64,000 bases of DNA from the NCBI GenBank assembly GCA_008632985.1, contig QPGO01000088.1, positions 62,001 to 126,000 on the forward strand, in the 5' to 3' direction. A program made the position numbers and the translations under genes. Each line of letters begins with the position of its first letter. The stretch's first letter is position 1. The stretch is from Psammoneis japonica. Taxonomy: Eukaryota. Of the stretch, positions 1 through 62,738 are shown one piece after another. Under the pieces are notes generated by a model. The model had not been told where the DNA came from. It was given only the letters and a program-made list of their open reading frames with translations, and did no database searches.

Positions 1-100
1 GATTCATTCACGATTTCCAGATTTCGCGATATTCGCCAATCGCCATAAGCAGCAGCACACAAACCACAAACAGCATTCGACATTCGACCACAGTTCGACC

Positions 101-19859: not shown

Positions 19860-22800
19860 CTCACGGAGTGATGTCATTCAGAGCATGATGAAAAGAACCA
19901 GGTTGTGCTGCAAACTTCTCTCAAGTGGATCAGCAGGCACTGCTTCTTGAAAATGCACTGAGGTCAATGAGAAGTTGCCATTGCACCACTTTCACTGCAA
20001 ACAAGAAACAAGACAGCACATATGTGCACTCATTTTTCAAAGACAAGGTCTTTTCAACCCACATTTGTCCTTTTGTGATTGTGCCCTTTTCTTTTTTTGA
20101 CAGAGAACACCAACGCACAACAAGGCAAATTTGCACATGCTCTGTGTTTGGGCTGCATCTCCTCCTTCAACAATGATCTTTTTGTGAATGCTGCATGCAT
20201 CATTCCAACACACAGGCAAAACCCCACTCTGTGTGTTGGAAAGCACTTGGTTTTGTGCATTTGTTTGGTTGTTCCAAAAGGAGGAGGAGCTTCAGCCCCG
20301 CCAACACAAAAAGAGTTGTTGATTTTGAGAGCAAAATTCAATTTGTTCCCATGAGTGAATGATGCCTGCAGACATGTGGGAGGAGCATTGTGAACTGTGC
20401 TGCATGATGGGGAGCTCTGTGCACAGAGCAAAATGCTTTTTGTCGAAATGTCAAGTTGATGTGTGTGCTTGTTTTATTTTGAGAACTTCTTTCAACCACA
20501 CAACTGCAGAAGGGGCACTGGCTGACAATGTGAAGTGGATGTGAAGTGTGTCATGAAGACAATTGCTGGACACTGGGCAAGTGTTGCTGAACTCACAGAG
20601 TTCCGTTGCACAAAGTCTCTGCCCATGAGGTGGTGGCATCAAAACACATCTGTGCAATGCAGAAACAACCATGTGCAGACCAATTTAGATGTGTGTGGCA
20701 GAATCAATGGCACCAGCTGTGTGTTGATTGAGCCCAGAGCAGGGTGTTGAAATGGCCTGAGGTGATGGTGCAAGAACTCCAAACTTGAAAGTTGCCACAA
20801 AATCCTTCCACAAGAATGTCTTTTTTCTTTTTTCGTGTGAACAGAAAGAGAAACAGCACCCACAGACAAAGCAAAATGTGGTGTGTCATGTGCTGTGGGG
20901 CATGACATCATGGACAACAGTGACACACAGGATGTGAGTGTTGTGCAAAAAAAAAAACATGAGGCAAAGTTCAAACATTGTCAATTTGATGAGTGTGTGA
21001 TGAGCAAACACTCTGGAAAAATTGTTGGCACATGTTTCCCCTGGTGCTGGAACAAGTCAATTGCCCACACCAGGTGGCAACTCCTTTGCTCCACTGCCAT
21101 TGGCACATTCAATCTGGCAGCAGAGCCAGCCAGCATTTCCTGCTGTGTGGCATGATTCTTGTGTTTTGATGCCACCAACACCCAGTCTGGCACAAAACCA
21201 GTCAAAATCTTTTTTGCTGGCTGGTCTGCAGCACTTCTGATCTCCAGCAAAAAGGATGACTCCGACTCTGGTGCACACCAGCACAGTGTGCCGTTGGGAA
21301 AGAAGCAGTCTTTTTGCCTTGGCTTTCTTTGTTGTGGCCAGGTGCAAGCACATGAGATCCATTGCAAACTGAGCTGCTGACATTCAAGGCAGTGTCAACA
21401 CATCATGGGAGGGGAAGCTGGGGTCAAGGGCATGACCATGTGCAAAGATTTTGCTCCTTGCACTGCTCTGGAGCCCCTCCTGTGCAGACCCATTTTTGCA
21501 GCACACCGTGACTGTGTGGCACACTGGTTTCCTTGGCTTGCCCAAAGCAGAACAAAAGAGGCTGTGCGTTGTTCTCATCAAAATGCCACTTCTCTGCTGT
21601 TCACAAAAAATTGAAAAAAAGCCAAAAAATTCCATCATCAATGCCCCACGTTTGAGTTGAGCGGGGGTTTTGCATCCATGTCATCAGGTCAACAAAAGTG
21701 CAAGGCAAGCCATGCTGGTGGTGTGGCATCTTTTGCCTCCCTGCCGGACACTCATGAAGTCACAGCTTTTGATCAAACCTTGCTTGGAGCCACAGCCCTT
21801 CATTGAGCTTTGTTCCAGTCCAAAAAGTCACACAGCAACAGCTGTTGGCACAAGTTTTGCAGCAGCTGGGACAAACAGGTTGTTTGAGACAAGTTGCTCA
21901 GCACGCACTTTTTCTAAAATGATGCAGGCAGAAGTGATGGCAGGCTCCACACACAAGATGCATGACAGGACACAGGACATCTTGCAACCATTTCCAGCCA
22001 TGTCTTTCCAGCCATTTTTTCAAATGCTGCAACTTTGGTCTGCTCTGCAGGACTGCTGCCAAGCACATTTGTGAGAAAGCAAGCAGCACATTTTTTCAGG
22101 CACAGGCATCATGTGCTGGACCAACAATGAGCTGGCCTTGCCAAGCAAGTGACATGCATTGTCAAGGTGTTCAGCAGGGTGAACAAAAGAACAAAAAGGG
22201 TCAAAAATTCTGCAAGCTTCTGGGGCCAATCTGGCCTTGGACTTGCTTGTGCCCAGTTGGGCAGCCCTGGCTTCAGATCATGTGTGCCCAATTGTTGCTC
22301 CAGCTTTGGGATTGGTGCTGGTTGCTGTTGCCAAGACTGACTTAATTTTCAGCAAATTTCAAGAAAGAGTGATTGGCTGCTGAGCTTTCAGCAGGAGATT
22401 CTATGGGGAGTTGCTTGTGGAGCAGTCTGCACATGCATGTGGTGGTGCAAGAGAAGAGTCCATGACCACAGTGTGCTGAAGGTGTGCAAGAGTGGTTCTG
22501 TGAAGGTGCGCGGTGACACCAAGAACATCATTCTCTCTTTTGTCTTGGCCTGTGACCAACATGGCCTGCAAGATCATTCAAAAGATTTTGACAAAACCCC
22601 GCAACAAATCAAATTGTGAGAGGATCCAGAGGAGGCACTTGCTGACCAGCAATGTCAATGCTGCTTGCCATCAATCAGCTGGAAGCTGCTCTAAAATGGC
22701 AGCACTTGTCTGTTGTGTGCACCACACACAAAACAATTACACGCAAACAAGCACTGGGCTTGCTCTGACCCTTGGTTTGGCTCTTTTTCAATTGGGATCT

Positions 22801-23150
22801 TTGTCATTGGAAGCACATTGCAAATGCATGCTGCCAACCAAGAACCAGTGCAGAGAAACTCTCCATCTTGGGCCATTTGGCATCTTCCACCAAAGTTGTT
22901 GCTAGATTCAATGTGACAAAATGGCAACATCAGACATTTTTTCATCCATGACCATTCGAGATGACAAAGGCATTTGCACCCTCCATCTTAGTTTGCCTGC
23001 ACAGAAACAAATCAATTGGTGACAGCATTTGTCCACCCCAGATCTTTTTTGCTGGCAACAGCCTTTGTCCACCCCAGATCTTTTTTAGTCATCAATTCTC
23101 CCTCCTCACCAACAACCTGCTGCATCTGCAGCAGACAACTCTGAACGACC
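19860..23150. mobile_element. Heavily mutated repeat or transposon relic of unknown class (TpA- and CpG-depleted island)
   Basis: About 10 TA dinucleotides in ~3.3 kb, few CG, strong TG/CA excess, no intact ORF. Element class not recognisable. Confidence 0.55.
23022..23086. repeat. Tandem duplication, 36-bp period, ~2 copies
   Basis: ACAGC(A/C)TTTGTCCACCCCAGATCTTTTTT occurs at 23022 and 23058. Confidence 0.85.
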
Positions 23151-25925: not shown

Positions 25926-26495
25926 TTTGCGCTTTTCGAACAAGGTACTGTATTGAAGTAATGTTCCCTGTGGATCGGTGAGTAAAGAATGTGAGCGACA
26001 GGTGACCTTGAGAAGAGCAGAAGATTCATGCATCGAATGCGATGGTGAAAGCACGGTTGCGGCAGAAATTGGAAATGCAGCTGAGCTGGATGACGTGTCC
26101 AACCCGAATCTTCGCCTGTGAGTCTGTCCCATCAGGCGGTCGATGTCTTTCGCGCGCGATAGCATAACAAACGACGCGACCAGTTTTTGCGTCAATTTTC
26201 TGCACACGATGACCCGTAATCTTTTGATCTTCATCAAGGCAAAGTCGTCGACATTGATACAGAAAAGGAACACAGCGACACAAAAATACAGGCAACAAAT
26301 CAATGCAGTGTTCGTTGTTTCATACGCACTCCTGCCTTCCTGCGAAAATGGCAAGCAATTTCGAACCGTGTGTTTTCTCGAGGCTGCTGCGTCTGCGTGG
26401 GTTCTAGTGTGTTGGTTACACTCACGTCCAGTCTACTCTACTACCGGTAGTCGTTATTACTTGCGTAGAAATGTACATAGATTTTTGTATGAGTC

Positions 26496-26939
26496 GGATT
26501 CGATGGTGTGCGATGCCGATCTCACCCAGGACTAGCCCAAGGACTGCCTTGCCAAGAACCACCAAGAAGTGACTCGACATTGGAGCACTTAGAAGTCTCG
26601 TGGAGTAGAGTTTTCGGTAACACCCTACTCCGTACTAGGGGGGTTGGGTAAACCCATGCCCTCCGCAGGGTCTCGAGTGAAACTCGAGGGCTCGATGATT
26701 GGTTCATCGGACCATGCTCCGGGCGCTTCCGAGCGAACGCAGTGGGGGGTGCCTTCGGCATTGCGCGACGTCGGCACCCCGAACTGGCAGGATCTCAAAC
26801 TCGGAATGGAAGAGAACGCCAGACGCCATTTGTTTGATTACGTAGTTGGGCGTCGTCGAGAATGTGGAACCGAAAGGAACCGATCTAGACTCCAGCGACA
26901 GACTCCCGCGGTCTTGTCGACACAGGTGAGCACAAATCC
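26496..26939. repeat. Split direct repeat B2 (444 bp)
   Basis: Colinear direct copy of 27194-27637 with ~25 differing sites. Confidence 0.95.
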
Positions 26940-26958
26940 AGGGAGTGGTGGGTGGGTG

Positions 26959-27194
26959 GCAAAAAATGGCTTTTCCAATGCTTTGGCATGGTCCAGTCAC
27001 GTTGATCAGAGTTCCTGTCTCAACAAAGATGGAAAAGTGGGGAAACAGGATGCCGACAAGTTTGACCGGTCACAGAAACCGGTCATCTTGGCCCAGAGGT
27101 GCCCTCCTCTGGAAGAGGCACATGTCGGTGGACTAGCCAGATGAGAGGTCTTGCCTCGCACGGTTCGTCTCCATCTAAACTTGGGTGCGAAGAG
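26959..27194. repeat. Split direct repeat A2 (236 bp)
   Basis: Colinear direct copy of 35375-35610 with 9 differing sites. Confidence 0.95.
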
Positions 27195-27637
27195 GATTCG
27201 ACAGTGTGCGATGCCGATCTCACCCAGGACTAGCCCAAGGACTGCCTTGCCAAGAACCACTGAGAAGCAACTCGACATTAGAGTGCTTGGAAGTCTCACA
27301 GAGTGGAGTTTTTGGTGACACCCCACTCCGCACTGGGGGGGTTGGGTAAACCCATGCCCTCCGCAGGGTCTCGAGTGAAACTCGAGGGCTCGATGATTGG
27401 TTCATTGGACCATGCTCCGGGCGCTTCCGAGGGAACGTAGTGGGGGGTGCCTTCGGCATTGCGCGACGTCGGCACCCCGAACTGGTGGGATCTCAAACTC
27501 GGAATGGAAGAGAACGCCAGACGCCATTTGTTCGATTGCGCAGTTGGGCGTCGTCGAGAATGTGGAGCCGAAAGGAACCGATCTAGACTTCAGCGATAGA
27601 CTCCCGCGGTCTTGTCGACAAAGGTGAGCACAAATCC
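27194..27637. repeat. Split direct repeat B1 (444 bp)
   Basis: Direct copy of 26496-26939, abutting A2. Confidence 0.95.
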
Positions 27638-27720: not shown

Positions 27721-29343
27721 TCACATTTCATGAGTGTGTCTTAAGAAGCAAGGGAGGAGGAGAGAGATGTCAGCGCAGTGTTGCCTCATCTTGTGAGTCG
27801 GCCTCATCCCTCCAGCTCGATCCTTCTTTTTCCAACGATTCACCAGGTCAATGTCGTCCTCCGACACATTTCGAGCGATGGCTCTCGAATCCGACCCACG
27901 TCAGAAGGACCTGCTCACATCGCACTTGTCCTCAATGTCCGAATGGGAGGTGATGTCTGCCCCAAAGAGGGACGGGTGGTCGTCAAAAAGCTCCGACAGG
28001 GCGAGGTGAAGAAGTGCATTTGGGTCATGGGTGGACAAGACCTTCCCAGCATCATCCGACATGGCTGGGCCTCGAGCTCATCCTCTTGATGCCTGAAAGG
28101 TCACAACTGCCTGGACCCACTGCCGGAGGCGAATGCCTGATCCCGTGACATTTGCACTCGGAAGCAGGTGTTGGCGCTCCCCATGTTCTCCCTTGACTCG
28201 ACCGAGAAGCGGAATCACCATGCAGGATTGATGGAGAGGCAGGTGTTCTTGCATGGCGCCCAAATCCATGAGTGAGCCTTCGGGGCCTCGGAGGGACAAC
28301 GTGAAACCAGCCGCGAAGCAGAGGCCACCAGTCAAGCACCTGAGGCGATCCTCAGCTGCGGTGGCCCGGTTGAACTTCTCTTCGATCCGGGGCAAAAGAT
28401 GTTGCATGATCTGCACCGAGATGGCCCTGTCTGGTCTCCAATCTTGGCCCGTGCGCCTTTTGCAACCTGTCACAAACCTTTGGAACCAGAGGGAAGCGCA
28501 AGGGTCCTCGCAAATGCGGAGACATTGTTTGCCCTCAAGGTCCGCAAGCGCTGAGGCTCGCCTGTTTGCAGAAGCCGAGGACCTCACCTGATTCGAGTGC
28601 GCAGTCCGCAGCTTCCCAATGGTGTCGAATTGAGTGTAGAAGTCAGAGTGCCGACCCGGGGACGTCAAAGCCAAGACCACCTGCATCGCGACCTCATGTC
28701 CACAATGATCAAAGGACGGCAGAGGTCCTGGCTCCAAGTGAGGACCTCGGAGCCCCAAACGCTCTGAGAGAGCCAAACCCCGGGCGACCTTGGACGCATT
28801 GTTCTCTACCGTGGAGGTCTCCCTGCTCCAGAAAGCGTCCAGGTTAACCCGCCTGATACAAGCCAAAGCCACCTGGTCACGTGGTGAGGTAGAGAAGGGG
28901 TCTCTCTGGCACAACTTGTGGAAGATGCACCCGTCGCACTCAAACGCCACCATCAAATGGTCCCCGGTTCGCGCCCGTGTAAACTTGTCCTTGTCCTGTG
29001 GTTTCCGGAACCAGGTGTCATCCTCGATCCGAGCGGCGTCCTCACCGGGAAGTTCCTCGCTGTCGTTTTCTTGGTCGGGCTGGAGGATCCCCCCCAGGTG
29101 GAACGTCATGTTTTTGCTTGAAGTGTGGCACCCGGGACACCACGCTTTTCGACACGCGGGCCAGCCCCCGACACTGTGAACAAAATTGGCGAAGAAGATG
29201 CCCCTCGTCCACTTCAGCATCCTCCCACACTCTGCGCAGCGCCCGGTCCATTGAGCACATTTTTGGGGTGCCTTGGAGCTGCCACGGACTGTGCAGGACG
29301 AAAGGAAAAGCAAGGCCTGTGAGCAGAGGTTCGAACATCTCAC
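27721..29343 (-). pseudogene. Tyrosine recombinase of the retrotransposon; in-frame TGA at 28078-28080 and 27901-27903
   Basis: LSLRGPEG (catalytic Arg box) and LLGRVKGE. Reading through the stops gives SRSF*RGS (SFRRG box), VNRW and MRQHCAD, where the catalytic Tyr is expected. Confidence 0.85.
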
Positions 29344-32300
29344 CGGGCCAGAAAGGCCCGGCCCCAGCCGGAACTCGAAACACCAAGTCGGAAGCCTTGT
29401 GCAATTGTTTTTGCCACTCAGGGGTCATCAGGCGGGGACACACAAAGATGTGGAAAGAAGTCTGTCGCTTGAGTCGGGCAATCCGCAGTTCTTTGAGTGC
29501 ATTCCTTGCTGCTGCCGGGGGCGGAGCCCAGACCCAGGTGCCAGAGCGAAAAGCAGGCACTTCAACAGCTTCGTAGGGTGGGCAGCACCACCCAGACATG
29601 TCATGCCCTTTCTGACACCAATCAAGCGGGGAGAGCAGATCGGCTGTGGGAGATCCAGCCCAAGACTGAATCCACCCCAGGAGTGGAGGTGCTCGCTCAG
29701 TTGCCGGCAGGTGCAAGGGGACAAACGAGAGCATCTTGGCTCCATTCATCACCCCTTCCAAAAGGACCCCTCGAGAAACTCCGTCCGTGCCCTGGGCTGT
29801 CATGCGACTCCCTGAAACATGAATCAAGTGGAGTGTAAACCCATGCTCAGCCTCCAGGACTCTGAGCCGCACTGCTTGTTCCAGGAGTTTCGGGTTGGAA
29901 GAAGTTCCCTTGTAGACGGCGACTTCCGAAACCGAATTGTCCGTGAAGAAATGCAACACAGCACGGTCGAGTTCCCCCGCCTCGGCCAGTTCCTGGATGG
30001 AGTCCACTGTGTTGGTTAGTTCCTTCCAGTTTGACGAGTTCGACTGGTCGTCATCGCCCCAGACACCAATCCTGAAGACCATCGCCCCGTCCTTCGTTTC
30101 CACTGAGGATCCAAGTCCCTTCCCCGACGCGTCAGCAAACCCATGCAAGACCACCACGACCTTGGAGGACCTGATTACCCTGGTGGTTGGTTTTTCAGGT
30201 TCCAAGATCCGCTGCAGAGCCTTCAGATCCAACAACAGACGCGGCACCGCGCGAACGGACTCGGGGTGTCCCGCATCCTGGAGGGCCTCCCTGACTTCGT
30301 ACGGTTCCATGCCGAGCTTGTCCGCTTCGTGCTGAATCCACACTGCACATTCCTTGTCTGACACAGCCCATCCATCGGGCTTGCGGTTAGGTCGCCACCC
30401 ATCCAGGGTCAAGTGGATTCCTTTAAGGAACGGGGTGACAAACGGGCAGGTCATGGCCGTGTGGACTAAATGTCCTCGTTTCCTCTCCAAATCCTTGAAA
30501 TTGAACAGTGGGAGGGAGGAGGCGGCCGATGCGTCGTAGGGGCTCAACAGGTCTGTGATCATCGTCTTGCTCTTGTCCCACTTCGCTTGCGACAGGGATT
30601 GGGTGACGTCCCCATCTATCACTCGAAAGATCGCTCCGGCCCAGGCCCTGGTTTCGCGCTGGGATGGCGGGCGCACCTTCCGGGCCGCGTTTTGGAGACC
30701 AAGACACTGGAGTCTCGAAGCCATTTGATGACCCACTTGCCAAGCCTCTTCTTTGCTCGATCCCATGCCCCGCAGATCATCGACGAAGGTCTTTATGTCG
30801 CCTGCGACGACCGCTTGACGGGAGTTCCACTCAACCACCAGGGGCTTCTTCACATCGTAATTGGGATCGCCCGGCAGATTGAATGGGATCTTGTCAAAGC
30901 CCATCGGGTTCCCCGGCCGTCCCGGGTCCCCCCGGGCCACCTCATCAGCCCAACAACAAGCGCGCACGGCCAGGCAAGGACTGGGTTTCACACCCATAAA
31001 TGAGCGGTTCCACCTCTCCAACCCCACAGGAGCCTGACCAGCCAAAGGTTTCGGCAAGTGGTCGCGAAGCGGGGTCAGGTCGATCCCGGCGTAAGGCCGA
31101 ATGCGGGGGTCCACAAAGAAGTTGAGAAACATGTCCCCCAGGTTCAAGTCAACAGAGAAGGTGGTTGGTGTCACACAGCCGAGGACTGAGGATGCAGTCG
31201 GGAGGTAAAATGAAGGTGCCCACAGCGCGTCGTTTAGCCCCGACGAGGCACCGTTGTAAACCATGCGAATGTCTTCCACGACCTCTTCCATTCTTCCATC
31301 GCTTCTCGGCAACAGAGACACCGCCTTGGGGACCCAAAAACAGTCGGTGAGGCTGGACACTGGGCCCGCCTCAATGTAACCGTGATCCCGGACCTTCTGA
31401 AGTTTTGTCGCCATCTGCTGGATCTCATTGGATGTGCCGCGGATGCGTTGCCGCCGGCGATTTCGAGGGAGGGTGGTCTGGACGAAGATCGGAGTGCCGT
31501 CACGGGCCCCATCCCGCTGCTCGGGAGAGGGCCAGCGCCAGAAGAAAAGCGAGGACCCCCGGTCCCAACTCCACCAAGAACTCCCCAGAGCCTGAATCAA
31601 GACGTCAGCCCCCAAGTTGGCGTCCAACAAAAGGGAGGGGAGAGGTGGGTCCCGGTGCAAACCCCCCTGTAGACTCCCAACAGAGTCCCCAAACCATCGA
31701 TGAAGGTGTGCCAGGCGGGTCATCCACCCTGGGCCACAACACCGACGCAGGAAACCCAATGGCGACCGGGTCAAGCGTCGCCGCCACCATCGGTGGGCCA
31801 GCCCGCGAAGGGCCGGAAGCACCGGTTCAAACATGGGAAACAAGAGTGTGATGCGCTTGTCCCAAAGGCGACAAGGGGGGGCAACCGAATCCCCTTTTGC
31901 CGCCTTGGCGGCAATCAGGGACAAATCGATCCAGTCGTGCGACAAGCACCGACCCAGGCGCGGCAACCATGTAGCCCGAGGACCAGATGCCGGAAGCTCA
32001 GGAGACCGCGTGGGTTGGGCTGGCTGGACCTCTGGCGGCAACTCTGGGCTGGAGTGTTGTAAAATGAAACCGTCCGTCACCACATGGAGGAGATTTAACG
32101 GAACCATCTGAGTGAGGCCTTCACCCCCCAATCGGTCCCGAATGGCTGGAGACTGAAACCGAGTGGGAAAATCCCACCCTGCAAGGAGTTCATCTCCAGT
32201 GAAAGCACGAAGAGTCCACCCCGTGGGTGACCGGTGGGACTGGCAAAGAACCTTCCGCCCCAAATGGTGGGGGTGCAGCAAATCGCACTCACGGTGCACT

Positions 32301-32860
32301 GTTTCACCCGGCTCTGATGGGCCAACCTGCCCCTTGCATTTGCAATCGATGATGTGGCCGATGGTCCGCCGCAACCCGTGATCGAGTTGTGGCAACGCGC
32401 CCCCGACACAGTAGAATGTTGTTCGGAAGGAGGTCACGCCTCCAACCGCCGAATGAGCAATGGCTGAATGAGGGAGATGCTGGAGCCCCTTCAACGCTCG
32501 TCTCGACATCCCCCCGACCGGGACCATGTGCATCGGGCACGAGGTCCCCACTCGCGAAACTCTCTCCAAAACACAGGGAGGGCCCGAAACTGGTGCCAAA
32601 TCTGCGCTCTCCAACGCATGAGGCACCCCAGAGAAAGGGATGCGCTGAAGAGAAGCTCCGTCTTGCGACTCAAAAAGCGCAACAAGGACCGACTCCAAGG
32701 GAGACGGGTCAGAATCAATCGAGCAAAGAACAACTCGAGGCCACTCAGCACAGCGGAGGGCCAAGAGCCAAATGGGGGGACCCCCAGAGATGACCAAGCA
32801 TGTCCCACGAAAAGCAAAGGATTTGCGGCCGCGGATGACGTGCCCCACATTTTCGTTCAC
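29042..32860 (-). CDS. Pol-like ORF: N-terminal extension, reverse transcriptase, RNase H, C-terminal DIRS MT-like domain (degenerate)
   Basis: WVPK...IRMVYN, DLNLGDMFLNF, MGVKPSP, FVDD; RNase H FADASG, SSNWKEL, FTDN, HVSG and DGVSRG; WVWAPPP...IFVCPRL...W. Confidence 0.88.
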   Translation of the reverse strand: MNENVGHVIRGRKSFAFRGTCLVISGGPPIWLLALRCAEWPRVVLCSIDSDPSPLESVLVALFESQDGASLQRIPFSGVPHALESADLAPVSGPPCVLERVSRVGTSCPMHMVPVGGMSRRALKGLQHLPHSAIAHSAVGGVTSFRTTFYCVGGALPQLDHGLRRTIGHIIDCKCKGQVGPSEPGETVHRECDLLHPHHLGRKVLCQSHRSPTGWTLRAFTGDELLAGWDFPTRFQSPAIRDRLGGEGLTQMVPLNLLHVVTDGFILQHSSPELPPEVQPAQPTRSPELPASGPRATWLPRLGRCLSHDWIDLSLIAAKAAKGDSVAPPCRLWDKRITLLFPMFEPVLPALRGLAHRWWRRRLTRSPLGFLRRCCGPGWMTRLAHLHRWFGDSVGSLQGGLHRDPPLPSLLLDANLGADVLIQALGSSWWSWDRGSSLFFWRWPSPEQRDGARDGTPIFVQTTLPRNRRRQRIRGTSNEIQQMATKLQKVRDHGYIEAGPVSSLTDCFWVPKAVSLLPRSDGRMEEVVEDIRMVYNGASSGLNDALWAPSFYLPTASSVLGCVTPTTFSVDLNLGDMFLNFFVDPRIRPYAGIDLTPLRDHLPKPLAGQAPVGLERWNRSFMGVKPSPCLAVRACCWADEVARGDPGRPGNPMGFDKIPFNLPGDPNYDVKKPLVVEWNSRQAVVAGDIKTFVDDLRGMGSSKEEAWQVGHQMASRLQCLGLQNAARKVRPPSQRETRAWAGAIFRVIDGDVTQSLSQAKWDKSKTMITDLLSPYDASAASSLPLFNFKDLERKRGHLVHTAMTCPFVTPFLKGIHLTLDGWRPNRKPDGWAVSDKECAVWIQHEADKLGMEPYEVREALQDAGHPESVRAVPRLLLDLKALQRILEPEKPTTRVIRSSKVVVVLHGFADASGKGLGSSVETKDGAMVFRIGVWGDDDQSNSSNWKELTNTVDSIQELAEAGELDRAVLHFFTDNSVSEVAVYKGTSSNPKLLEQAVRLRVLEAEHGFTLHLIHVSGSRMTAQGTDGVSRGVLLEGVMNGAKMLSFVPLHLPATERAPPLLGWIQSWAGSPTADLLSPLDWCQKGHDMSGWCCPPYEAVEVPAFRSGTWVWAPPPAAARNALKELRIARLKRQTSFHIFVCPRLMTPEWQKQLHKASDLVFRVPAGAGPFWPGEMFEPLLTGLAFPFVLHSPWQLQGTPKMCSMDRALRRVWEDAEVDEGHLLRQFCSQCRGLARVSKSVVSRVPHFKQKHDVPPGGDPPARPRKRQRGTSR

Positions 32861-32884
32861 CTGTGGTGCGCCCCCCCCCTGGCC

Positions 32885-35356
32885 TCATTTCTTTGTCTCC
32901 AGAGCCTTCAGACGACGGTTCACCTCTTTCAGCTCCGCTTTTAACTTGTTCACCTCTTGGTGTGCCGTGTCGGCTCGCGCCTGCGCCGACTTTGCTTCCG
33001 TCCCCGCATTCTTGGCCTTGTCGGTGAGGGTCACAACCGTGGCCTGCAAAGCTGTCACCACTTCAAAACCCGAATTGGTCGCGAGGAACTTGACACACTC
33101 AGATGCCATCGAGGGGTGGTCCTTAAAGTTGTGCGCCGTGCATTCGGCCATTACGTCCTGGGACCTGAACACCGCCCAAAGAATTTGACTGCACACCGCA
33201 TCGGGATCCGTCCCAGCGATCGAAGTGAAAACCCCTGACCGAACCTGGTTGAGGTCATCGAAGATCCAGTGTACGAGTTTCGACGTCAAAGACCAAGCCT
33301 GTTTCTGAGAAAACTTGCTCAACTGCACAAGATTTTTGCAGGTCTCGTCCATGAACTGCATCAGGGCCCGTGCGAACGCCACGGACTTGGACAGAGCGTC
33401 TCGAACAACCTGGCTCTCAAAAGAACCGCTCGGGATCCTCTGGGAGATGTCATTTGGTGCATTGCGTTCGATCGTGACGATCTTTTCCATGACAAAGTGT
33501 TTGGCACCAGTGGACCCAGTCGTCCAATGGTCATGGGATGACACCTTGTCTGGGAAAGAGGGGTGCAGCCCGGGTGACTGAGCTCCTTTCGCTGACCCCG
33601 AGTCAAGGATCCTCGGCATGCTGCATTGGAAACTGGCAAGAGTTCGCGCATCCTCCTCCGCACTGATCTTCAAGTCCATCCGTTTGGACAACCCAGCAAG
33701 GAAGTGATGCAACGCGGCGAGCTCGGTGCCCGCAATTCGGCCCAACAACAAATTGGCATCCGTAAGACAGCCATGCACTCTGGAAGAAAAATGCTGGACC
33801 ATCCAGGCCTTGCACTCTGAAAATGACGAAACGCCTGCACCCGAGAATTTGATGGCTGAAGATTCCGATTTGGACTTCAGCTCATTGACCGCTTGGCTGA
33901 GGTCTCGGATTTGACGATCGAGTGTCCCAGAGGGCGAGACACCCGCTCCACTCACCCCACTGCCGAAGCCAGCAACTCCTCCACCCAACGTAGCGGCGTT
34001 CTCCAACCTCTGCACTTTTGCCACTAGTTGGTTGCAGACTCTCAGGGTCCCCGCCCTCAGAGAGTCCAGGTCGCGTTTAGGAGCGAGGCTGGAGAGCTGG
34101 GCCTGGACCCTTTGAAGAGCTGCAGTAAAACTTGACGCCAACCTGTTGGACCCGGCCCGAGCGCTGCTTTCCAAGCGGGCCATTTCAGTAGAAAAATCCC
34201 GAGGTTGAGCCGAACTCAGTGTCGACAGGTTAGCGAGCGTCCCCCAGATAGTTGGGGCTTCCACTCGCTGGTCGAGCTCCGCCGGAGGGGCACCAAGAGT
34301 GGCATCGAGCTGTTCCAACTTCCGACTCAGCACATCAAGTGCCAAGTCCGAGTCTTTGAACCTGGAGCAGGCTTTGTTTCCCAAGTCGACCAGAACTTGT
34401 CCCGTCTCCGACAAGTTTCGTTCGACCGACTGCACCACACGAGCCAGGGCCGCCGGGCTCTTGTTTGCTGCAAGAAATTGGGACGGGGCAGTGGCAATCG
34501 CCCGTTGGCAAGGGGAGAAGTGGCCAAACTGTGACCCCGGAAACAAATCGCTCCCAGGATCCTTGGTTTTCGCTGGGGTTTTGTAGGCCGCAGCCTCCTT
34601 GCACTGCTTGAGAGACTCGCCAAACTGATCCTCCGTCGGGAAGCGCGACTCACTGTTTCCTAGAGCTGGGAACTTTTGACGCCACCCCGCCAAGGTGTCC
34701 GATGCTGACTCCCACTTGACCAACACATCAGCAGAGACAAATGAGCCGTCGAGAGTGGGTTGGCAGAAAGCTGCACCCAGCGTCTTCAGGATCGACACCA
34801 TGCCGTTCGGAGGCACTTGTTTCTTGGATCCCTTGTGTTTCACTTTGCACTCCGAGGCTTTCTTGAAACAAAATGTCGCACCACTCCCAATTGCGCCAAG
34901 GCACCGGGTGGTGTCGGTGCCCTCCATCCAGACGACACAAAAACGAGGAGCATCAGACGAAGGAGACGCACCTTCCTCCTTCGACGTGAACGCCCCTCGA
35001 GTTGCTCCCTCATCCCCCGGAGCAAAAAAGTCCACGCGTGGTGCGTGGGCCTGCGCTCCGTCGGCTCGCGAAAGAAGGACATCGAAAGCCGAATCTGGGT
35101 TGGGGGAGTTGACCTCCCCCAATTCCGCGAGCTCAATGTCCGAGTGCCCAGCGTCGGTCATTCCAAGGTTCAAGCCCCCAAGGGAGGGGTTTGGGCCCTC
35201 AGTGCCCCCCTGATGACCCGCCCCAGAGGGTGGGGCCCGAGAAGCGGAGGACGAAGGAGAACGCGACGAGAACGGAGAGATGACATCTGACTCGAGAGTG
35301 CGGGCAATGTTGACGAAGGCCTCGTCATTGACGCCGGAAGCAAAGAAGTCAGACAT
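32885..35356 (-). CDS. Gag-like ORF1 of the retrotransposon
   Basis: First ORF after repeat A1, with a Cys/His cluster CLGAIG..FC....C...H and coiled-coil segments. Assignment is mainly positional. Confidence 0.7.
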   Translation of the reverse strand: MSDFFASGVNDEAFVNIARTLESDVISPFSSRSPSSSASRAPPSGAGHQGGTEGPNPSLGGLNLGMTDAGHSDIELAELGEVNSPNPDSAFDVLLSRADGAQAHAPRVDFFAPGDEGATRGAFTSKEEGASPSSDAPRFCVVWMEGTDTTRCLGAIGSGATFCFKKASECKVKHKGSKKQVPPNGMVSILKTLGAAFCQPTLDGSFVSADVLVKWESASDTLAGWRQKFPALGNSESRFPTEDQFGESLKQCKEAAAYKTPAKTKDPGSDLFPGSQFGHFSPCQRAIATAPSQFLAANKSPAALARVVQSVERNLSETGQVLVDLGNKACSRFKDSDLALDVLSRKLEQLDATLGAPPAELDQRVEAPTIWGTLANLSTLSSAQPRDFSTEMARLESSARAGSNRLASSFTAALQRVQAQLSSLAPKRDLDSLRAGTLRVCNQLVAKVQRLENAATLGGGVAGFGSGVSGAGVSPSGTLDRQIRDLSQAVNELKSKSESSAIKFSGAGVSSFSECKAWMVQHFSSRVHGCLTDANLLLGRIAGTELAALHHFLAGLSKRMDLKISAEEDARTLASFQCSMPRILDSGSAKGAQSPGLHPSFPDKVSSHDHWTTGSTGAKHFVMEKIVTIERNAPNDISQRIPSGSFESQVVRDALSKSVAFARALMQFMDETCKNLVQLSKFSQKQAWSLTSKLVHWIFDDLNQVRSGVFTSIAGTDPDAVCSQILWAVFRSQDVMAECTAHNFKDHPSMASECVKFLATNSGFEVVTALQATVVTLTDKAKNAGTEAKSAQARADTAHQEVNKLKAELKEVNRRLKALETKK

Positions 35357-35374: not shown

Positions 35375-35610
35375 GCAAAAAACAGCTTTTCCAATGCTTT
35401 GGTGTGGTCCAGTCACGTTGATCAGAGTTCCTGTCTCAACAAAGATGGAAAAGTGGGGAAATGGGATGCCGACAAGTTTGACCAGTCACAGAAACCGGTC
35501 ATCTTGGCCCAGAGGTACCCTCCTCTGGAAGAGGCATGTGTCAGTGGACTGGCCAGATGAGAGGTCTTGCCTCGCACGGTTTGTCTCCATCTAAACTTGG
35601 GTGCGAAGAG
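35375..35610. repeat. Split direct repeat A1 (236 bp), 5' end of the element
   Basis: Direct copy of 26959-27194. Confidence 0.95.
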
Positions 35611-35682
35611 TCCTCAACTCACTTGCGACTCCTCCGACGCGACGCAACCGACCCACCAAGCAAACGGGCAGAAGTTGACGTA

Positions 35683-37718
35683 ATCATGACGTTTCGCGTC
35701 GCGCGGGACTGGGACAAGACACACCGCACTGCACCCGCCAGGCACAGCTGGCTCCTCCACATGCTCCAGCTGCACTGCGACACAGCGCACAGGCGTGGTG
35801 GGAAGAGTGGAGAGCAGGCACATGCAACATCCAGCCAGCACAGAGCTGCCAGAAGCAGAGCAGTGAGCAGCCCAGCCAGCTGGAAACAGACAGATGGGAG
35901 CAACAGCTTTGGCAGCCATTGTCGATGCCAGCCAGCGGCAATTTGCAGCAGCCCATCACAAAAAGAAAGAGGGCAGCTCTCAGGAAGAACTTGTTGTTCT
36001 TGCCATGCCTTGCACACAATCTGAAGCTGCTTTCTGATGGAAAACATGGCAGCTTCAGTCTTGCTGCTGCACACATCTAAAGTCACATCCTTCGCATCAT
36101 CATGTCTCTCAAGCAGTGCACAGCTCCCCACAGGCTGCTGGGCTCTCTGCACAAGGAGAAGAAGGTGCACGCTCTCACTGTCTCTTTGGTGTTCATCAAG
36201 TGGCCTTTTCATTGCTGGTGCCCTTTGGGCATGCAACTTTTCTTGGGTGCTTGTTGCGGCCACTGTGGCAAGAAGGAATCTGGCGCACACTCCAGCTCTG
36301 CCTTGCACTGTGCCGCACTGTGGCATGAAAGTCTTTTTGACCATGCCACATGTTGTGCACATGCATTTCTGTGTGTGATCCACTGTGAAATTGTTCTGCA
36401 CTTCCTGTTTTGTGAAGCCAAAGGTTCTCCATTTTCTTCATTTGTGAAAGCAAAAAAAGTGCTGGGCGTGCTCTTCAACGTGTGAAGAGTGTGCCTGGGC
36501 AAGCTGGGAATCATGTGCTTCAAGCGAGGACTTTTTCTGTTGGCGGCCATTTGCATGATGTTCATTGCTGGACAATTTTGCTGTGGAGCTTGCATGAAGA
36601 ATTCTGTGGGCCTGGTGTTGCGCGCAGCCCCGCCTGGGTCCAGGGTGCATTGTCTGTTGTTGTGTCAATGTGCTTGCCTGCACCCATCATGTGTGTTGTG
36701 CTTTTCTGGCAAAGCTCAGCCAGCAGAGCCATCAGCACTTGTCGTTTCATTGTCATTGCAGAAAGTGCCCCACAATGCAATTTGCACCTTTGGCAGAAAG
36801 CTGAGTCCTTGACAAACCATGTTCTTCAAGACTGGGGTGAGTTCCGCAAGATCTTGTGATTTTCCATGACAGAGGAGAAGTCCACCCTTGGCATCTGCAG
36901 CTGCCTGCTGCAAACTGCACTGCATGCCCAGTTTCTCACCCAAGTTTCTGCCACTCCAATGCCGACAGCCGCCCAGTTCATTGTCATCTTCTCTCTTCCC
37001 CTTGTTCCTCATGCAAAGTGCAGACAAGGTTTTTGTGGTGCAGCAGCGTGCAGTTGTTTCCATTTTTGAATTGCTCATTGTGGCCAGTGCTTGCTTTCCT
37101 CTTGTCTTTCTGTTGAACAGTTTTCAACAACTTCTCATTCATTGTGATGTGCTGGTGGGCCGCTTGCTCCCAGAGGCAGCAGGTGCGCAAATTGTCTGTT
37201 GTCATTCTCATGTGCACATTTGCACACCACACAGCAAACACAGGAATGACAAAACAACTCTGTGCATCAGGTGACAACAAATGATTTGTGCGCCTCTCTG
37301 GTCATTCACTCCAGTTTTGAGCAAGTTTCTGGACAGACGCTGGCTGTCCAAAGAAACTCTGTCCTCTCCAGTGCATTTTTGGGTTTTGCCAGCAATTGCG
37401 AGCACCTTCATTTTTGCACAAGAAAACAGTTGAGCTCATCTTCTGTGTCTGCCCCTTGCCCCCTGCCTGACCTGACCCCCAGGACTGGAGAAAGATGGGT
37501 GAGACATCTGGGTTTGGGGCTGACCACTTCCAAAATGACCAAACATTTGCAAGAAGTTTTTGGACATGAAACAGCGCTCAATGATCTTTGAAGGCTTCAG
37601 GACCTCACATGCATTGCTCTGCAAACAATGCAAAACACACCAAATTTTGCCACTGCCTGTGACCGACGACCGACGCGTGGTGCATCGCATTCGGCAGGTC
37701 GCGACACTCGACAGATGT
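35683..37718 (-). mobile_element. Decayed transposon, possibly MULE/MuDR-like
   Basis: One TA in ~2 kb. Minus-strand fragments TTDNAPWTQAGL..P...CKLH and FTVD...CMCTTC....MPQC resemble the MULE D...CxxH motif and a SWIM finger. No terminal inverted repeats seen. Confidence 0.45.
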
Positions 37719-61479: not shown

Positions 61480-62520
61480 GGCTCTCGTCCCCTTGTTTTG
61501 TTCCTCGTCATTCTGTTCTTTTGATCGTTTTTTTTCTTCAAAGGGATCCAGAAGGAACACAAGGAACAAAGTCAGCAAATCATCCTGCACTCAACTGTGG
61601 CCCACAGCTGCTCTCCTGAATCCACACCCTCAACTTTTTCTCAGTCTTTCAATGACAATGGCGGGCAGGCTGTTTTGTGAAGAAGAAGAAAAAGACCTCT
61701 CTAAGCAGGGCGCCCTGTGCCACACACCACTTGGGGAGCAGCACACCCAGCTGCTGCTGCCGCTCGCACTTGCAGTTGCCAAAGCAACAAAAGTTTTGTT
61801 CTTCCTTTGCTTCCTCTAGGTGGCTTTTTTTGCTGGCACCGCGCTCTGCTGCCCCTCCCAAATGCACATGAACACACCTCACTTCTGTGAGCAGTGCCCA
61901 CATCATGCCATGACAAAGTCTCTTGGGGTGGGCAGAAGAGCAGCCTCATGATGTGTGGCAAAGTCTCTCCCAGAGCACAAGAAGTTGCTTTGCTGCAAGA
62001 AAAGAGTGAGCCTTGGGGTTGCAGCCGCATCTCCAAGCTCAAAAGCAAAAGATGTCCCTGTTTTTGAGTTGAAAGTGCACAAAAATGGATGCCCATCTCA
62101 TGGGACACAAAGTGAGCAAGAAGCTTGCCAGATGATGACAAGCACACTGTGCATCATCAAGGAGGAGTCATTGAGAAGGAGTGAGAAGCACTGAAAAGCC
62201 CTGCCTGGCTCCCCATGATGGGGCGGGCAACTTGCCACCTCACACCCATCTGAGCAGCGAGCAGAAGTTGTTGTGGGCAAGATGACACTTCTTGTTGTCA
62301 GCTCCAATGTGCAATCTCTTTGCCAAATGCTGAGAACAACAACACATGCTGCCTTAAAGTGCTTGGGTTTAAGAAGAGAAAGAAGACACACAGCTCAGAA
62401 AATGTCATGAAGCATCTCTTCAATGCCAGCTGTAAAAAGAAAATGTGTTGTTGCTTCTTCTCATGACTTCACAAAGAAGGGAGCTGTGTTTCATTTGAAG
62501 TGGCACCAATGCAGGTGGAT
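61480..62520. mobile_element. Third TpA/CpG-depleted island; degenerate repeat of unknown class
   Basis: About 5 TA in ~1 kb, TG/CA-rich, no intact ORF. Confidence 0.5.
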
Positions 62521-62738
62521 CCTTGTGTTACAAAATTGACCATTGACAGCAATGTTGACAATCTGACATTTGGTGTTCTGCATTGGACCAAATGGCACAG
62601 ACAGCATGGGTGACTAAAACGACAGAAGAAGCCATGATGCAATATGAAGTTGTTGTAGCAAAGCCAACACCACTACAGTAGCTAGAGAGGAGGGTGCAGG
62701 GTAAAGTGTTATTTGCATGTACCAAAATAAAGGATAGT

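What the first reader, a model, noticed from the sequence alone, without database searches (positions are those of the whole stretch)
26496..27637. The two B repeats give a direct mutation spectrum: ~21 of ~25 differing sites are TA/TG/CA/CG interchanges
Manual alignment of B2 (26496-26939) with B1 (27194-27637): 11 sites TA versus TG or CA, 6 sites TG versus CA (both copies hit at one ancestral TA or CG on opposite strands), 4 sites CG versus TG/CA, and 4 others. These repeats should be identical at insertion, so the changes arose in the chromosome. TA sites outnumber unambiguous CG sites.
Basis: seen in the sequence. Interest (0 to 1): 0.8.

Follow-up and report, generated by a model that had tools for sequence, protein, structure and literature searches.

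The report
Transposon repeats reveal TA-erasing hypermutation
Two repeat copies inside a dead retrotransposon of a probable diatom differ almost only at TA, CG, TG and CA dinucleotides, and the evidence suggests that TA (quickly) and CG (slowly) are being converted to TG or CA, roughly the reverse of fungal repeat-induced point mutation.

Summary
B2 (26496-26939) and B1 (27194-27637) align without gaps and differ at 31 bases (29 transitions) in 25 sites: 11 TA vs TG/CA, 6 TG vs CA, 4 CG vs TG/CA, 4 other. 27 of 29 transitions lie in pyrimidine-purine steps (P=6e-8).

The B and A repeats are the split direct repeats (A1-ORFs-B1-A2-B2, minus strand) of a tyrosine-recombinase retrotransposon at 26496-35609/10. 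Read contigs also show an empty-site allele.

Polarity was inferred without a family consensus:
- At 13 Tyr columns conserved in relatives, this copy keeps Tyr at 2 and has His or Cys at 10. The reverse change occurs at 1 of 18 His/Cys columns.
- Both premature stops are TGA at conserved Arg. No TAA or TAG occurs in 2605 codons.
- TA observed/expected is 0.13, against 0.40-0.78 in 80 related elements.
- Three nearby tracts have lost TA and CG while keeping total pyrimidine-purine steps.
- Two-copy likelihood favours TA-ancestral models over a C-to-T cascade by 16.5 log units.

Classical RIP or double deamination is therefore not supported. The best reading is strand-symmetric, element-confined TA-to-TG/CA hypermutation (about 67% of sites per copy) plus slower CG-to-TG/CA decay (about 6%). 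The enzyme is unknown. Pre-integration editing and assembly artefact are not excluded.

The parts
26496..26939 (-). B2, the outer (terminal) copy of split direct repeat B, at the 3' end of the element on its sense (minus) strand
   Evidence: 444-bp ungapped match to 27194-27637 at 93.0% identity. A read contig joins 26495 to 35611, so the element starts at 26496.
26940..26958 (-). 19-bp spacer between B2 and the internal copy of A
   Evidence: Not part of either repeat in the alignments.
26959..27193 (-). A2, the internal copy of split direct repeat A
   Evidence: 236-bp match to 35375-35610 at 94.5% identity. All 13 differences are YpR transitions.
27194..27637 (-). B1, the internal copy of repeat B
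27721..29238 (-). Tyrosine-recombinase ORF, degenerate. Premature TGA at 28078-28080 and 27901-27903. All 8 conserved Tyr columns read His or Cys.
   Evidence: Translation. 289 relatives with E<=1e-5, the named ones from Fragilaria crotonensis. The model of relative P0237 (49% identical) matches XerH, Cre and phage integrases, E 1.5e-4, probability 1.00. Column analysis.
29042..32884 (-). Pol ORF (reverse transcriptase, probably with RNase H), 1280 codons without a stop
   Evidence: 317 relatives, best 48% identity. The model of the window's own 852 residues matches CaMV, HIV-1, MoMLV and Ty3 reverse transcriptases, E 3e-8, probability 1.00. Pfam gives no hit on the window protein.
32885..35356 (-). 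ORF1 (gag-like, coiled-coil C-terminus). ATG at 35356-35354, TGA at 32887-32885.
   Evidence: only weak coiled-coil-type Pfam hits.
35375..35609 (-). A1, the terminal copy of repeat A, at the 5' end of the element
   Evidence: Empty-site joint at 35610/35611.
19865..23145 (.). TG/CA-only tract 1, where CG and TA are almost absent
   Evidence: Per kb: 243/5/3, 234/8/1 and 229/5/6 (TG+CA/CG/TA), against about 146/65/28 in host DNA. Borders. TG 376 vs CA 385.
35800..37660 (.). TG/CA-only tract 2, starting about 190 bp from the element's end. TA is gone and CG is about two-thirds gone.
   Evidence: Window 35701-37700 has TG+CA 455, CG 39, TA 1. Borders. TG 229 vs CA 226.
61530..62615 (.). TG/CA-only tract 3
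   Evidence: Window 61501-62700 has TG+CA 249, CG 12, TA 12. Borders.

Best explanation
The B repeats and the A repeats are the split direct repeats of one tyrosine-recombinase (DIRS-order, Ngaro/PAT-type) retrotransposon on the minus strand. It is inserted at 26496-35609/10 in what is probably a diatom genome.

Since the two copies of each repeat last shared a template, the element's DNA has undergone a strand-symmetric, dinucleotide-specific hypermutation in which TG and CA are the end products. TpA goes to TpG or CpA, an A:T-to-G:C transition on either strand. About 67% of TpA sites are converted per B copy and about 77-88% in the coding part, roughly two orders of magnitude above the background rate. 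CpG goes to TpG or CpA more slowly, about 6% per copy, as expected from deamination of methylated cytosine.

A TG-vs-CA site is then one where both copies converted the same ancestral TA, or rarely CG, on opposite strands. Because TA-to-TG/CA cannot create a stop codon, the long ORFs stay open although the proteins are ruined. The same process carried to completion would give the three TG/CA-only tracts in the window.

Shown: the spectrum, its strand symmetry, its confinement to the element, and the TA-to-TG/CA polarity in the coding part.

Inferred: that the same polarity holds at the B sites; that it happened in the chromosome after insertion; and that the chemistry is enzymatic deamination of adenine, or oxidation of thymine, at TpA in silenced transposon DNA.
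For: (1) Spectrum and context.

(2) Structure. The repeat order on the minus strand is A1-ORFs-B1-A2-B2. Reverse-transcriptase fold. Tyrosine-recombinase fold. An empty-site contig joins 26495 to 35611 at depth 28.

(3) Polarity from outgroups.
- In RT/RNase H there are 288 columns conserved in at least 70% of 60 relatives. Of the 5 Tyr columns, the window has Tyr at 2, Cys (TGT) at 1, His (CAT) at 1 and Phe at 1.
- In the recombinase there are 201 conserved columns against 70 relatives. Of the 8 Tyr columns, none keeps Tyr; 4 are His (CAT/CAC) and 4 are Cys (TGT/TGC). These include the nearly invariant C-terminal Tyr residues.
- Together, Tyr to His/Cys occurs at 10 of 13 columns and His/Cys to Tyr at 1 of 18 (Fisher P=6e-5).
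- Both premature stops are TGA at conserved Arg columns.

(4) No TA gain. There are 0 TAA/TAG in 2605 codons, although 162 CAA/CAG/TGG codons are present. 17.3 new stops would be expected at the rate the C-to-T model needs in B (P=1e-8).

(5) Composition.
- TA observed/expected is 0.13 inside the element, 0.5-0.6 in host DNA and 0.40-0.78 in 80 related elements.
- No 1-kb window in 508 kb of relatives has fewer than 15 TA, against 3-11 per kb here.
- TA loss is about equal in all three codon phases: 4.6/6.1/6.5 per 1000 codons against 25.4/48.4/52.5 in 52 relatives (chi-square P=0.55). It therefore looks unselected.

(6) Likelihood on 147 aligned YpR sites of A and B, with equal parameter numbers. 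TG/CA-sink model -262.1, A-to-G-only -262.5, C-to-T cascade -278.6. The sink model predicts 5.8 TG/CA sites in B against 6 observed (my arithmetic from the estimates).

(7) The tracts keep total YpR per kb while CG and TA vanish, and TG is about equal to CA.

(8) Where no read contig carries the window's letter, the window has TG/CA against CG at 15 places, against TA at 3 places, and the reverse at 4 (3 CG and 1 TA in the window). This is from the 40 rows shown of 2228.
Against: - No other copy of this family could be aligned to B, so the ancestral base at the 25 B sites is inferred, not observed.
- The sink model implies about 25 ancestral TA in the 444 bp of B, a TA-rich segment in an element whose coding part probably had fewer.
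- At 26618 all 4 contigs read C where both B2 and B1 have T. This shows three states at one site and no read support for B2's letter.
- One conserved His column reads Tyr (TAC) in the window.
- Strong rate differences among individual CpGs could rescue a C-to-T model for the TG/CA sites. Differences between regions do not: in 26496-26640 I count by hand 5 CG/CG, 2 CG/x and 5 TG/CA sites.
- The library type of run X1 is not on record, so its independence from the assembly is unproven.
- The process was seen only in this window. 80 relatives from other diatoms show CpG loss but no TA loss.
- No enzyme with this activity on DNA is known to me.
Confidence: 0.6

Rival explanations
1. Editing before integration, or repeats inherited unequal. 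The TA-to-TG/CA changes were made on extrachromosomal element DNA by a host restriction factor. Alternatively they accumulated over replication cycles because B1/B2 and A1/A2 are not fully regenerated each cycle, or the copy is a recombinant of two parents. The spectrum would be real but not a record of chromosomal mutation at this locus.
For: - The border with the flank is sharp: TA content is normal up to 26495.
- The insertion still has an empty allele in the read data, so it is not ancient. Yet about 67-88% of TA sites are converted while non-YpR divergence between B1 and B2 is only 2 of 244 positions.
- A burst at transposition would explain both points.
Against: - The changes are strand-symmetric: Tyr to His 5 and Tyr to Cys 5, and TA to TG 6 against TA to CA 5 in B. 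Editing of a single-stranded cDNA or of the RNA would mark one strand only.
- The adjacent tracts show graded states, with TA gone first and CG later, which suggests a continuing process.
- Split direct repeats are described as identical copies (PMC4157794, passages).
Confidence: 0.15
2. Classical C-to-T hypermutation: RIP-like at CpA, or deamination of methylated cytosine on both strands. CG would be ancestral at the TG/CA sites, TG/CA ancestral at the TA sites, and TA the derived end product.
For: - All changes are transitions in YpR steps, as in RIP.
- B is a 444-bp tandem duplication, about the size I recall as sufficient for RIP of linked repeats in Neurospora.
- B2 and B1 have more TA (observed/expected 0.53 and 0.30) than the rest of the element (0.13).
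Against: - lnL is -278.6 against -262.1. It predicts fewer than 1 TG/CA site in B against 6 seen (my arithmetic from the fit), while 32 CG/CG sites stay untouched.
- There are 0 TAA/TAG stops where 17.3 are expected.
- Tyr is lost rather than gained: 10 of 13 against 1 of 18.
- The element is 58% G+C and TA-poor, the opposite of RIPed DNA.
- The tracts lack TA altogether.
- All named relatives are diatoms, where I know of no RIP.
Confidence: 0.07
3. Assembly or base-calling artefact. Symmetrically modified bases at CG and TA in silenced DNA are misread differently on the two strands by a long-read platform. The consensus then picks TG or CA at random, and the true B1 and B2 are identical.
For: - It would explain TG-vs-CA sites, the conservation of total YpR and the open ORFs.
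- Only 0.54 of the stretch's sampled 31-mers are in run X1.
- At 40 listed places no contig carries the window's letter, including two in unique flank, 26408-9 and 35774.
Against: - X1's contigs have word depths of 25-67 and reach 315 kb, which suggests accurate reads. They show only one substitution (35774) and one 3-bp insertion across 35611-36000, which includes the first 200-300 bp of tract 2. About 28 differences would be expected there if the tract were an artefact (only the best 40 rows are shown, so this is not proof).
- 165 of 699 laid contigs are at least 99% alike.
- At three places the contigs read CA where the window reads TG, not CG or TA.
- From my own knowledge, methylated CpG does not cause near-complete miscalls in long-read consensus.
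Confidence: 0.08
4. Selection on nucleic-acid structure. The B1/B2 differences are compensatory changes that keep hairpins needed by the element.
For: The RNAalifold consensus of the two copies has 4 pairs changed on both sides and none broken. Examples are 26570/71 with 26586/87 and 26607 with 26626.
Against: - Over all 4096 phase assignments of the 13 variable sites in 26550-26649, the observed pair of sequences is not unusually stable. A fraction of 0.21 on the sense strand and 0.41 on the plus strand are at least as stable.
- Palindromic dinucleotides in the two arms of a stem give such patterns with probability about 1/8 by my reckoning.
- A shows no compensatory pair.
Confidence: 0.03

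Closest known systems
Repeat-induced point mutation (RIP) of ascomycete fungi (recalled knowledge; RIPCAL paper PMC2621366 seen as abstract in a search listing only)
   Same: Transitions only, tied to a dinucleotide context, on both strands, confined to the repeated or mobile sequence with a sharp border, and heavy enough to kill the element.
   Different: RIP turns CpA into TpA. That raises TA, lowers G+C and creates stop codons. Here TA is destroyed, G+C rises, no TAA/TAG appears and the ORFs stay open. The base change is A:T to G:C. The host is probably a diatom, not a fungus.
Decay of methylated CpG by 5-methylcytosine deamination in silenced transposons
   Same: Explains the minority class: 4 CG-vs-TG/CA sites in B, 3 in A, both TGA stops at Arg codons, and the CG loss in the tracts. 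Related diatom elements also show it, with CG observed/expected down to 0.35 and TG/CA raised.
   Different: It cannot remove TA or produce the 11+2 TA-vs-TG/CA sites. At the observed 6% per copy it yields almost no TG-vs-CA sites.
A-to-I editing by ADAR or ADAT/TadA-type deaminases with a 5' U preference, and hyperedited retroelements (recalled knowledge)
   Same: The same base change (A read as G) and the same 5' neighbour (T/U).
   Different: These act on RNA and mark only the transcribed strand of a retro-copy. Here both strands are hit equally, and non-coding tracts are saturated.
Thymine hydroxylation at TpA: base J in kinetoplastids and 5-hydroxymethyluracil in dinoflagellates, where it silences transposons (PMC11572971, abstract seen in a search listing; TpA preference recalled)
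   Same: A transposon-linked DNA modification aimed at the T of TpA on both strands. Mispairing of an oxidised T with G would give TA to CA/TG.
   Different: It is known as an epigenetic mark, not as a mutator. It has not been reported in diatoms as far as my searches show.
Ngaro/PAT-type DIRS-order retrotransposons (PMC4157794, passages read)
   Same: [quoted passage not shown]
   Different: Sequence is too diverged for Pfam models. A 19-bp spacer lies between A2 and B2. Presence of the methyltransferase-like domain that separates PAT from Ngaro was not resolved.

Membership tests
DIRS-order tyrosine-recombinase retrotransposon with split direct repeats (Ngaro/PAT type) | Reverse transcriptase of the LTR-retroelement type | tested here: met
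   The model of the window's own 852 residues (mean pLDDT 62) matches CaMV, HIV-1, MoMLV and Ty3 RT, E 3e-8 and below, probability 1.00. An FVDD motif is seen. Pfam RVT_1 matches 0 times on the window protein and only 2 of 16 aligned relatives. A profile of the alignment found no PDB sequence match.
DIRS-order tyrosine-recombinase retrotransposon with split direct repeats (Ngaro/PAT type) | RNase H domain after the RT | tested here: inconclusive
   DAS and TDNS motifs were seen by eye. The fold matches include RT chains that carry RNase H, but the domain was not tested on its own.
DIRS-order tyrosine-recombinase retrotransposon with split direct repeats (Ngaro/PAT type) | Tyrosine recombinase instead of a DDE integrase | tested here: met
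   The model of relative P0237 (49% identical to the window ORF, mean pLDDT 81) matches XerH, Cre, lambda and Tn1549 integrases, best E 1.5e-4, probability 1.00. In the window copy the ORF is broken by 2 TGA, and a nearly invariant C-terminal Tyr, presumed catalytic, reads Cys. Pfam and PDB sequence searches were negative.
DIRS-order tyrosine-recombinase retrotransposon with split direct repeats (Ngaro/PAT type) | Split direct repeats in the order A1 - ORFs - B1 - A2 - B2 | tested here: met
   Minus strand: A 35609-35375, ORFs, B 27637-27194, A 27193-26959, B 26939-26496.
DIRS-order tyrosine-recombinase retrotransposon with split direct repeats (Ngaro/PAT type) | Insertion without target-site duplication | tested here: inconclusive
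   The empty-site contig joins 26495 to 35611 with a single A between. No duplicated flank is evident, but one base at the joint is ambiguous.
DIRS-order tyrosine-recombinase retrotransposon with split direct repeats (Ngaro/PAT type) | Methyltransferase-like domain (present in DIRS/PAT, absent in Ngaro) | tested here: inconclusive
   No Pfam hit in the pol C-terminal 400 residues. No dedicated comparison was made.
Fungal RIP | C:G-to-T:A transitions with TpA as the product, lowering G+C and creating stops | tested here: not met
   Polarity is reversed: Tyr to His/Cys at 10 of 13 columns against 1 of 18 for the reverse. There are 0 TAA/TAG against 17.3 expected. TA observed/expected is 0.13 and G+C is 58%.
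Fungal RIP | Confined to duplicated sequence with sharp borders, both strands | tested here: met
   Normal TA content up to 26495 and depleted from 26496. Strand symmetry. The family is multi-copy in the read data, with 699 contigs laid.
Fungal RIP | Fungal host with RID/DIM-2 machinery, acting before meiosis | not testable with these tools
   No genome is held for this window. All named relatives of the element are diatoms.
Methyl-CpG deamination decay | CG to TG/CA with CG depleted and TG/CA raised | tested here: met
   Met for the minority class: 7 CG-vs-TG/CA sites in A and B, CGA-to-TGA stops, and the tracts. Methylation itself is not testable here.
RNA-level A-to-I hyperediting of a retroelement (ADAR/ADAT type) | A-to-G on the transcribed strand only | tested here: not met
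   On the sense strand TA to TG and TA to CA are equal: Tyr to Cys 5, Tyr to His 5. TG is about equal to CA in the tracts.

The most novel reading that the evidence does not exclude
This diatom has a DNA-level, transposon-targeted hypermutation system that works as a mirror image of RIP. A TpA-specific activity acts on both strands of silenced element DNA and converts essentially every TA to TG or CA. It could be a TadA/ADAT-like adenine deaminase or a TET/JBP-like thymine oxidase. It destroys Tyr codons, including the recombinase's presumed catalytic Tyr, without ever making a stop codon. Together with methyl-CpG decay it leaves 'TG/CA-only' fossils in the genome.
Probability: 0.4. Interest if true: 0.9.

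Novelty: new variant of a known kind. Interest (0 to 1): 0.75.

Why it matters
All repeat- or transposon-directed hypermutation systems known to me (RIP, APOBEC editing) deaminate cytosine, and A-to-I editing is known on RNA. A strand-symmetric A:T-to-G:C process aimed at TpA in transposon DNA would be a new kind of genome defence or mutator. It would also be a natural DNA activity comparable to engineered adenine base editors.

It would matter for transposon annotation. Hypermutated copies keep long open reading frames and look intact while every Tyr is gone, so ORF length stops being a sign of activity. The TG/CA-only tracts would escape homology searches.

The split direct repeats give a built-in two-copy clock, so the rates can be measured: TA about 67% per copy, CG about 6% per copy, other sites about 0.4% per copy. 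The claim is directly testable on the rest of this genome.

Tried and rejected
- Whole genome: not held, so no family consensus could be built.
- Exact or degenerate DNA pattern from the conserved core of B in metagenome contigs: 0 matches.
- Protein searches for near-identical copies: best 48% identity among proteins of similar length and 55% among short ones, so the species is not in that collection.
Only 40 of 2228 difference rows are shown, so B could not be polarised from it. Runs X2 and X3 laid nothing.
- Purine/pyrimidine recoding of the window to find hidden hypermutated repeats: only the known A and B pairs and the coding arrays appeared. There was no similarity among the three tracts or between them and the element.
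- Pfam on 23 ORFs of tracts 1 and 2: nothing above noise. No terminal repeats were found for tract 2, so the origin of the tracts is unknown.
- Repeats inside 80 related metagenome loci: most are exact 100-130-bp end overlaps that look like assembly artefacts. The two diverged pairs (L011, L009) show mixed transitions and transversions, not the YpR pattern. L066 has a 388-bp pair with 0 mismatches and one gap.
- Compensatory hairpin changes: not significant.
- Flanking-base preference of surviving TA: numbers are too small, apart from 0 TAT against 12 TAC codons.
- Literature: five full-text searches and a term search inside PMC2806351. None gave a report of TA-plus-CG-free tracts or TpA-directed hypermutation in diatoms.
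- Earlier findings of this scan: nothing relevant.
Full report
**1. The observation**

B2 (26496-26939) and B1 (27194-27637) are a direct repeat of 444 bp with no gap, and similarity ends abruptly on both sides. They differ at 31 bases: 29 transitions and 2 transversions.

In either copy 45% of positions lie in a pyrimidine-purine (YpR) step, but 27 of 29 transitions fall there (P=5.8e-8). A second repeat pair, A (26959-27194 and 35375-35610), differs at 13 bases. All are transitions in YpR steps (P=1.1e-5), forming 4 TG-vs-CA, 3 CG-vs-TG/CA and 2 TA-vs-TG sites. In purine/pyrimidine coding A is 100% identical and B is 98.7% identical.

**2. What the repeats are**

On the minus strand the order is A (35609-35375), three ORFs, B (27637-27194), A (27193-26959), a 19-bp spacer, then B (26939-26496). 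This is the A1-B1-A2-B2 split-direct-repeat layout of Ngaro/PAT-type tyrosine-recombinase retrotransposons. PMC4157794 (passages read) describes A2 as an identical repeat of A1, and B2 as an identical repeat of B1.

Pfam finds nothing in the ORFs, so I tested the folds.
- The window's own pol segment models as a reverse transcriptase. It matches CaMV, HIV-1, MoMLV and Ty3 RT at E 3e-8 and below.
- A relative that is 49% identical to the third ORF models as a tyrosine recombinase. It matches XerH, Cre and phage integrases, with best E 1.5e-4.

All relatives that carry a name come from diatoms: Cylindrotheca, Fragilaria, Skeletonema and Conticribra. None is more than 55% identical.

The host genes in the window are ordinary eukaryotic genes such as annexins, ABC transporters, ALG8-type and PEX11.

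Contigs of a public run that holds 54% of the stretch's sampled words show two things. The family is multi-copy, with 699 contigs laid at all degrees of likeness. One contig joins 26495 directly to 35611 with one A between, which is an empty-site allele. The ends of the element are therefore 26496 and 35609/10, and the insertion is polymorphic.

**3. Polarity**

Two copies alone cannot give direction, and I could not obtain other copies of B. Five independent lines bear on it.

(a) Outgroup comparison in the coding part.
- In RT/RNase H, 288 columns are conserved in at least 70% of 60 relatives. At the 5 Tyr columns the window has Tyr 2, Cys 1, His 1 and Phe 1.
- In the recombinase, 201 columns are conserved against 70 relatives. 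At the 8 Tyr columns it has Tyr 0, His 4 and Cys 4. These include the nearly invariant C-terminal Tyr residues.
- Together, Tyr to His/Cys (TA to CA/TG) occurs at 10 of 13 columns. His/Cys to Tyr occurs at 1 of 18 (P=6e-5).
- Further differences at conserved columns are V to A (GCA), I to T (ACA), L to P (CCA) and L to S (TCA). Each would follow from one TA-to-CA change if the ancestral codon ended in TA.
- Both premature stops are TGA at conserved Arg columns, that is CG to TG.

(b) No TA gain. The three ORFs (2605 codons) contain no TAA or TAG although 162 CAA/CAG/TGG codons are present. At the TG/CA-to-TA rate that a C-to-T model needs in B (10.7% per site), 17.3 stops are expected (P=1e-8).

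(c) Composition.
- TA observed/expected is 0.13 in the internal part. It is 0.5-0.6 in host DNA and 0.40-0.78 in 80 related elements from metagenome contigs.
- In 508 kb of those relatives no 1-kb window has fewer than 15 TA. The element has 3-11 per kb.
- TA density is 5 to 8 times lower than in relatives in all three codon phases (chi-square P=0.55). Tyr codons were not spared, which points to unselected decay of a dead copy.

(d) Likelihood. On the 147 aligned YpR sites of A and B, I compared models with equal numbers of parameters.
- TG/CA as sink: lnL -262.1.
- A-to-G only: lnL -262.5.
- C-to-T cascade (CG to TG/CA to TA): lnL -278.6.
- TG/CA as source: impossible.

The TA-ancestral fit gives 67% TA loss and 6% CG loss per B copy. 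It predicts 5.8 TG-vs-CA sites against 6 seen, whereas the cascade predicts fewer than 1; both predictions are my arithmetic from the estimates. B keeps 32 untouched CG/CG pairs and only 3 TA/TA pairs.

(e) Three tracts in the same window have almost no CG and no TA: about 19865-23145, 35800-37660 and 61530-62615. Total YpR per kb is unchanged, for example 243+5+3 against about 146+65+28 in host DNA, and TG is about equal to CA. That is what complete conversion of CG and TA into TG/CA would leave. Tract 2 has lost TA (1 left) but only about two-thirds of its CG. This fits TA being the faster class.

Among the 40 listed places where no read contig carries the window's letter, the window has TG/CA against CG at 15 and against TA at 3. 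It has CG against TG/CA at 3 and TA against CA at 1.

**4. Reading**

TA to TG/CA is fast. It runs at about 0.55 per base per copy, against 2 differences in 244 non-YpR positions between the copies. CG to TG/CA is slow and is ordinary methyl-CpG decay, which related diatom elements also show.

Both act on both strands. In B, TA to TG occurs at 6 sites and TA to CA at 5. In the proteins, Tyr to Cys occurs 5 times and Tyr to His 5 times.

The effect stops at the element's border. B2, the outermost copy, keeps the presumed ancestral state at 11 of the 15 one-sided sites (my count), which is not significant.

Because TA to TG/CA cannot make a stop, the 1280- and 866-codon frames remain open in a copy whose recombinase has lost all 8 conserved tyrosines.

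The mechanism is inferred only. The candidates are adenine deamination at TpA by a TadA/ADAT-like enzyme, or oxidation of the T of TpA as in base J and 5-hydroxymethyluracil, followed by mispairing. Both rest on recalled knowledge.

**5. Rivals**

- Pre-integration editing, or unequal inheritance of the repeats, fits the sharp border and the polymorphic insertion. It does not fit the strand symmetry or the graded tracts.
- Classical RIP or double deamination fails tests (a) to (d).
- An artefact from misread modified bases would mimic much of the pattern. However, the run's contigs have word depths of 25-67 and so appear to come from accurate reads. They show one substitution across the first 200-300 bp of tract 2, where about 28 would be expected. 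The table is truncated and the library type is not on record, so I keep about 8% on this rival.
- Apparent compensatory changes in hairpins are not significant over all 4096 phase assignments of the 13 variable sites (0.21 and 0.41).

**6. Limits**

- There is no outgroup for B itself.
- Only one window of one genome was examined.
- The tracts have no identifiable origin.
- The literature check was five full-text searches and one in-paper term search, with no report found. Supplements were not consulted.

**7. Verdict**

This is a new variant of repeat-directed hypermutation with the opposite chemistry to RIP. Interest 0.75.

Noticed in passing
window 19865-23145, 35800-37660, 61530-62615: Three complex, non-repetitive tracts in which CG and TA dinucleotides are almost absent while TG+CA rise by the same amount. 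TG is about equal to CA. No coding remnant, no mutual similarity and no terminal repeats were found.
   Followed up: partly
window 26495/35611 (run X1): A read contig joins the two flanks of the element with a single A between them. It is an empty-site allele at about haploid depth (28), so the insertion is polymorphic or hemizygous in the sequenced sample.
   Followed up: partly
window 26408-26409 (also 32143-4 and 34912-3): The window reads TG where every read contig reads CA. One of these double differences lies in unique flanking DNA inside an ORF, not in the element.
   Followed up: no
window 27721-35356, minus strand: All 12 surviving Tyr codons are TAC and none is TAT, while His and Cys codons are about 40% T-ending. 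TA followed by T (or preceded by A) may be the preferred target.
   Followed up: partly
window 35626-35704 and 37664-37709: Dense CpG clusters (15 CG in 80 bp and 10 CG in 45 bp) sit at both edges of TG/CA-only tract 2.
   Followed up: no
window 40096-47871, minus strand: One 2592-codon open frame with a TPR match and long G+C-rich tandem arrays (periods of about 99, 165 and 171-177 bp between 45.3 and 47.3 kb). CpG observed/expected is about 1.2.
   Followed up: no
window 2-1039, 4667-5461, 6360-6980, plus strand: Three annexin-repeat ORFs in tandem next to an ABC transporter gene.
   Followed up: no
L045:501-1200 (also L041, L080, L037): Some related elements from metagenomes have lost nearly all CpG (0-2 per 500 bp) but keep normal TA. 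This is CpG-only decay in other diatoms.
   Followed up: partly
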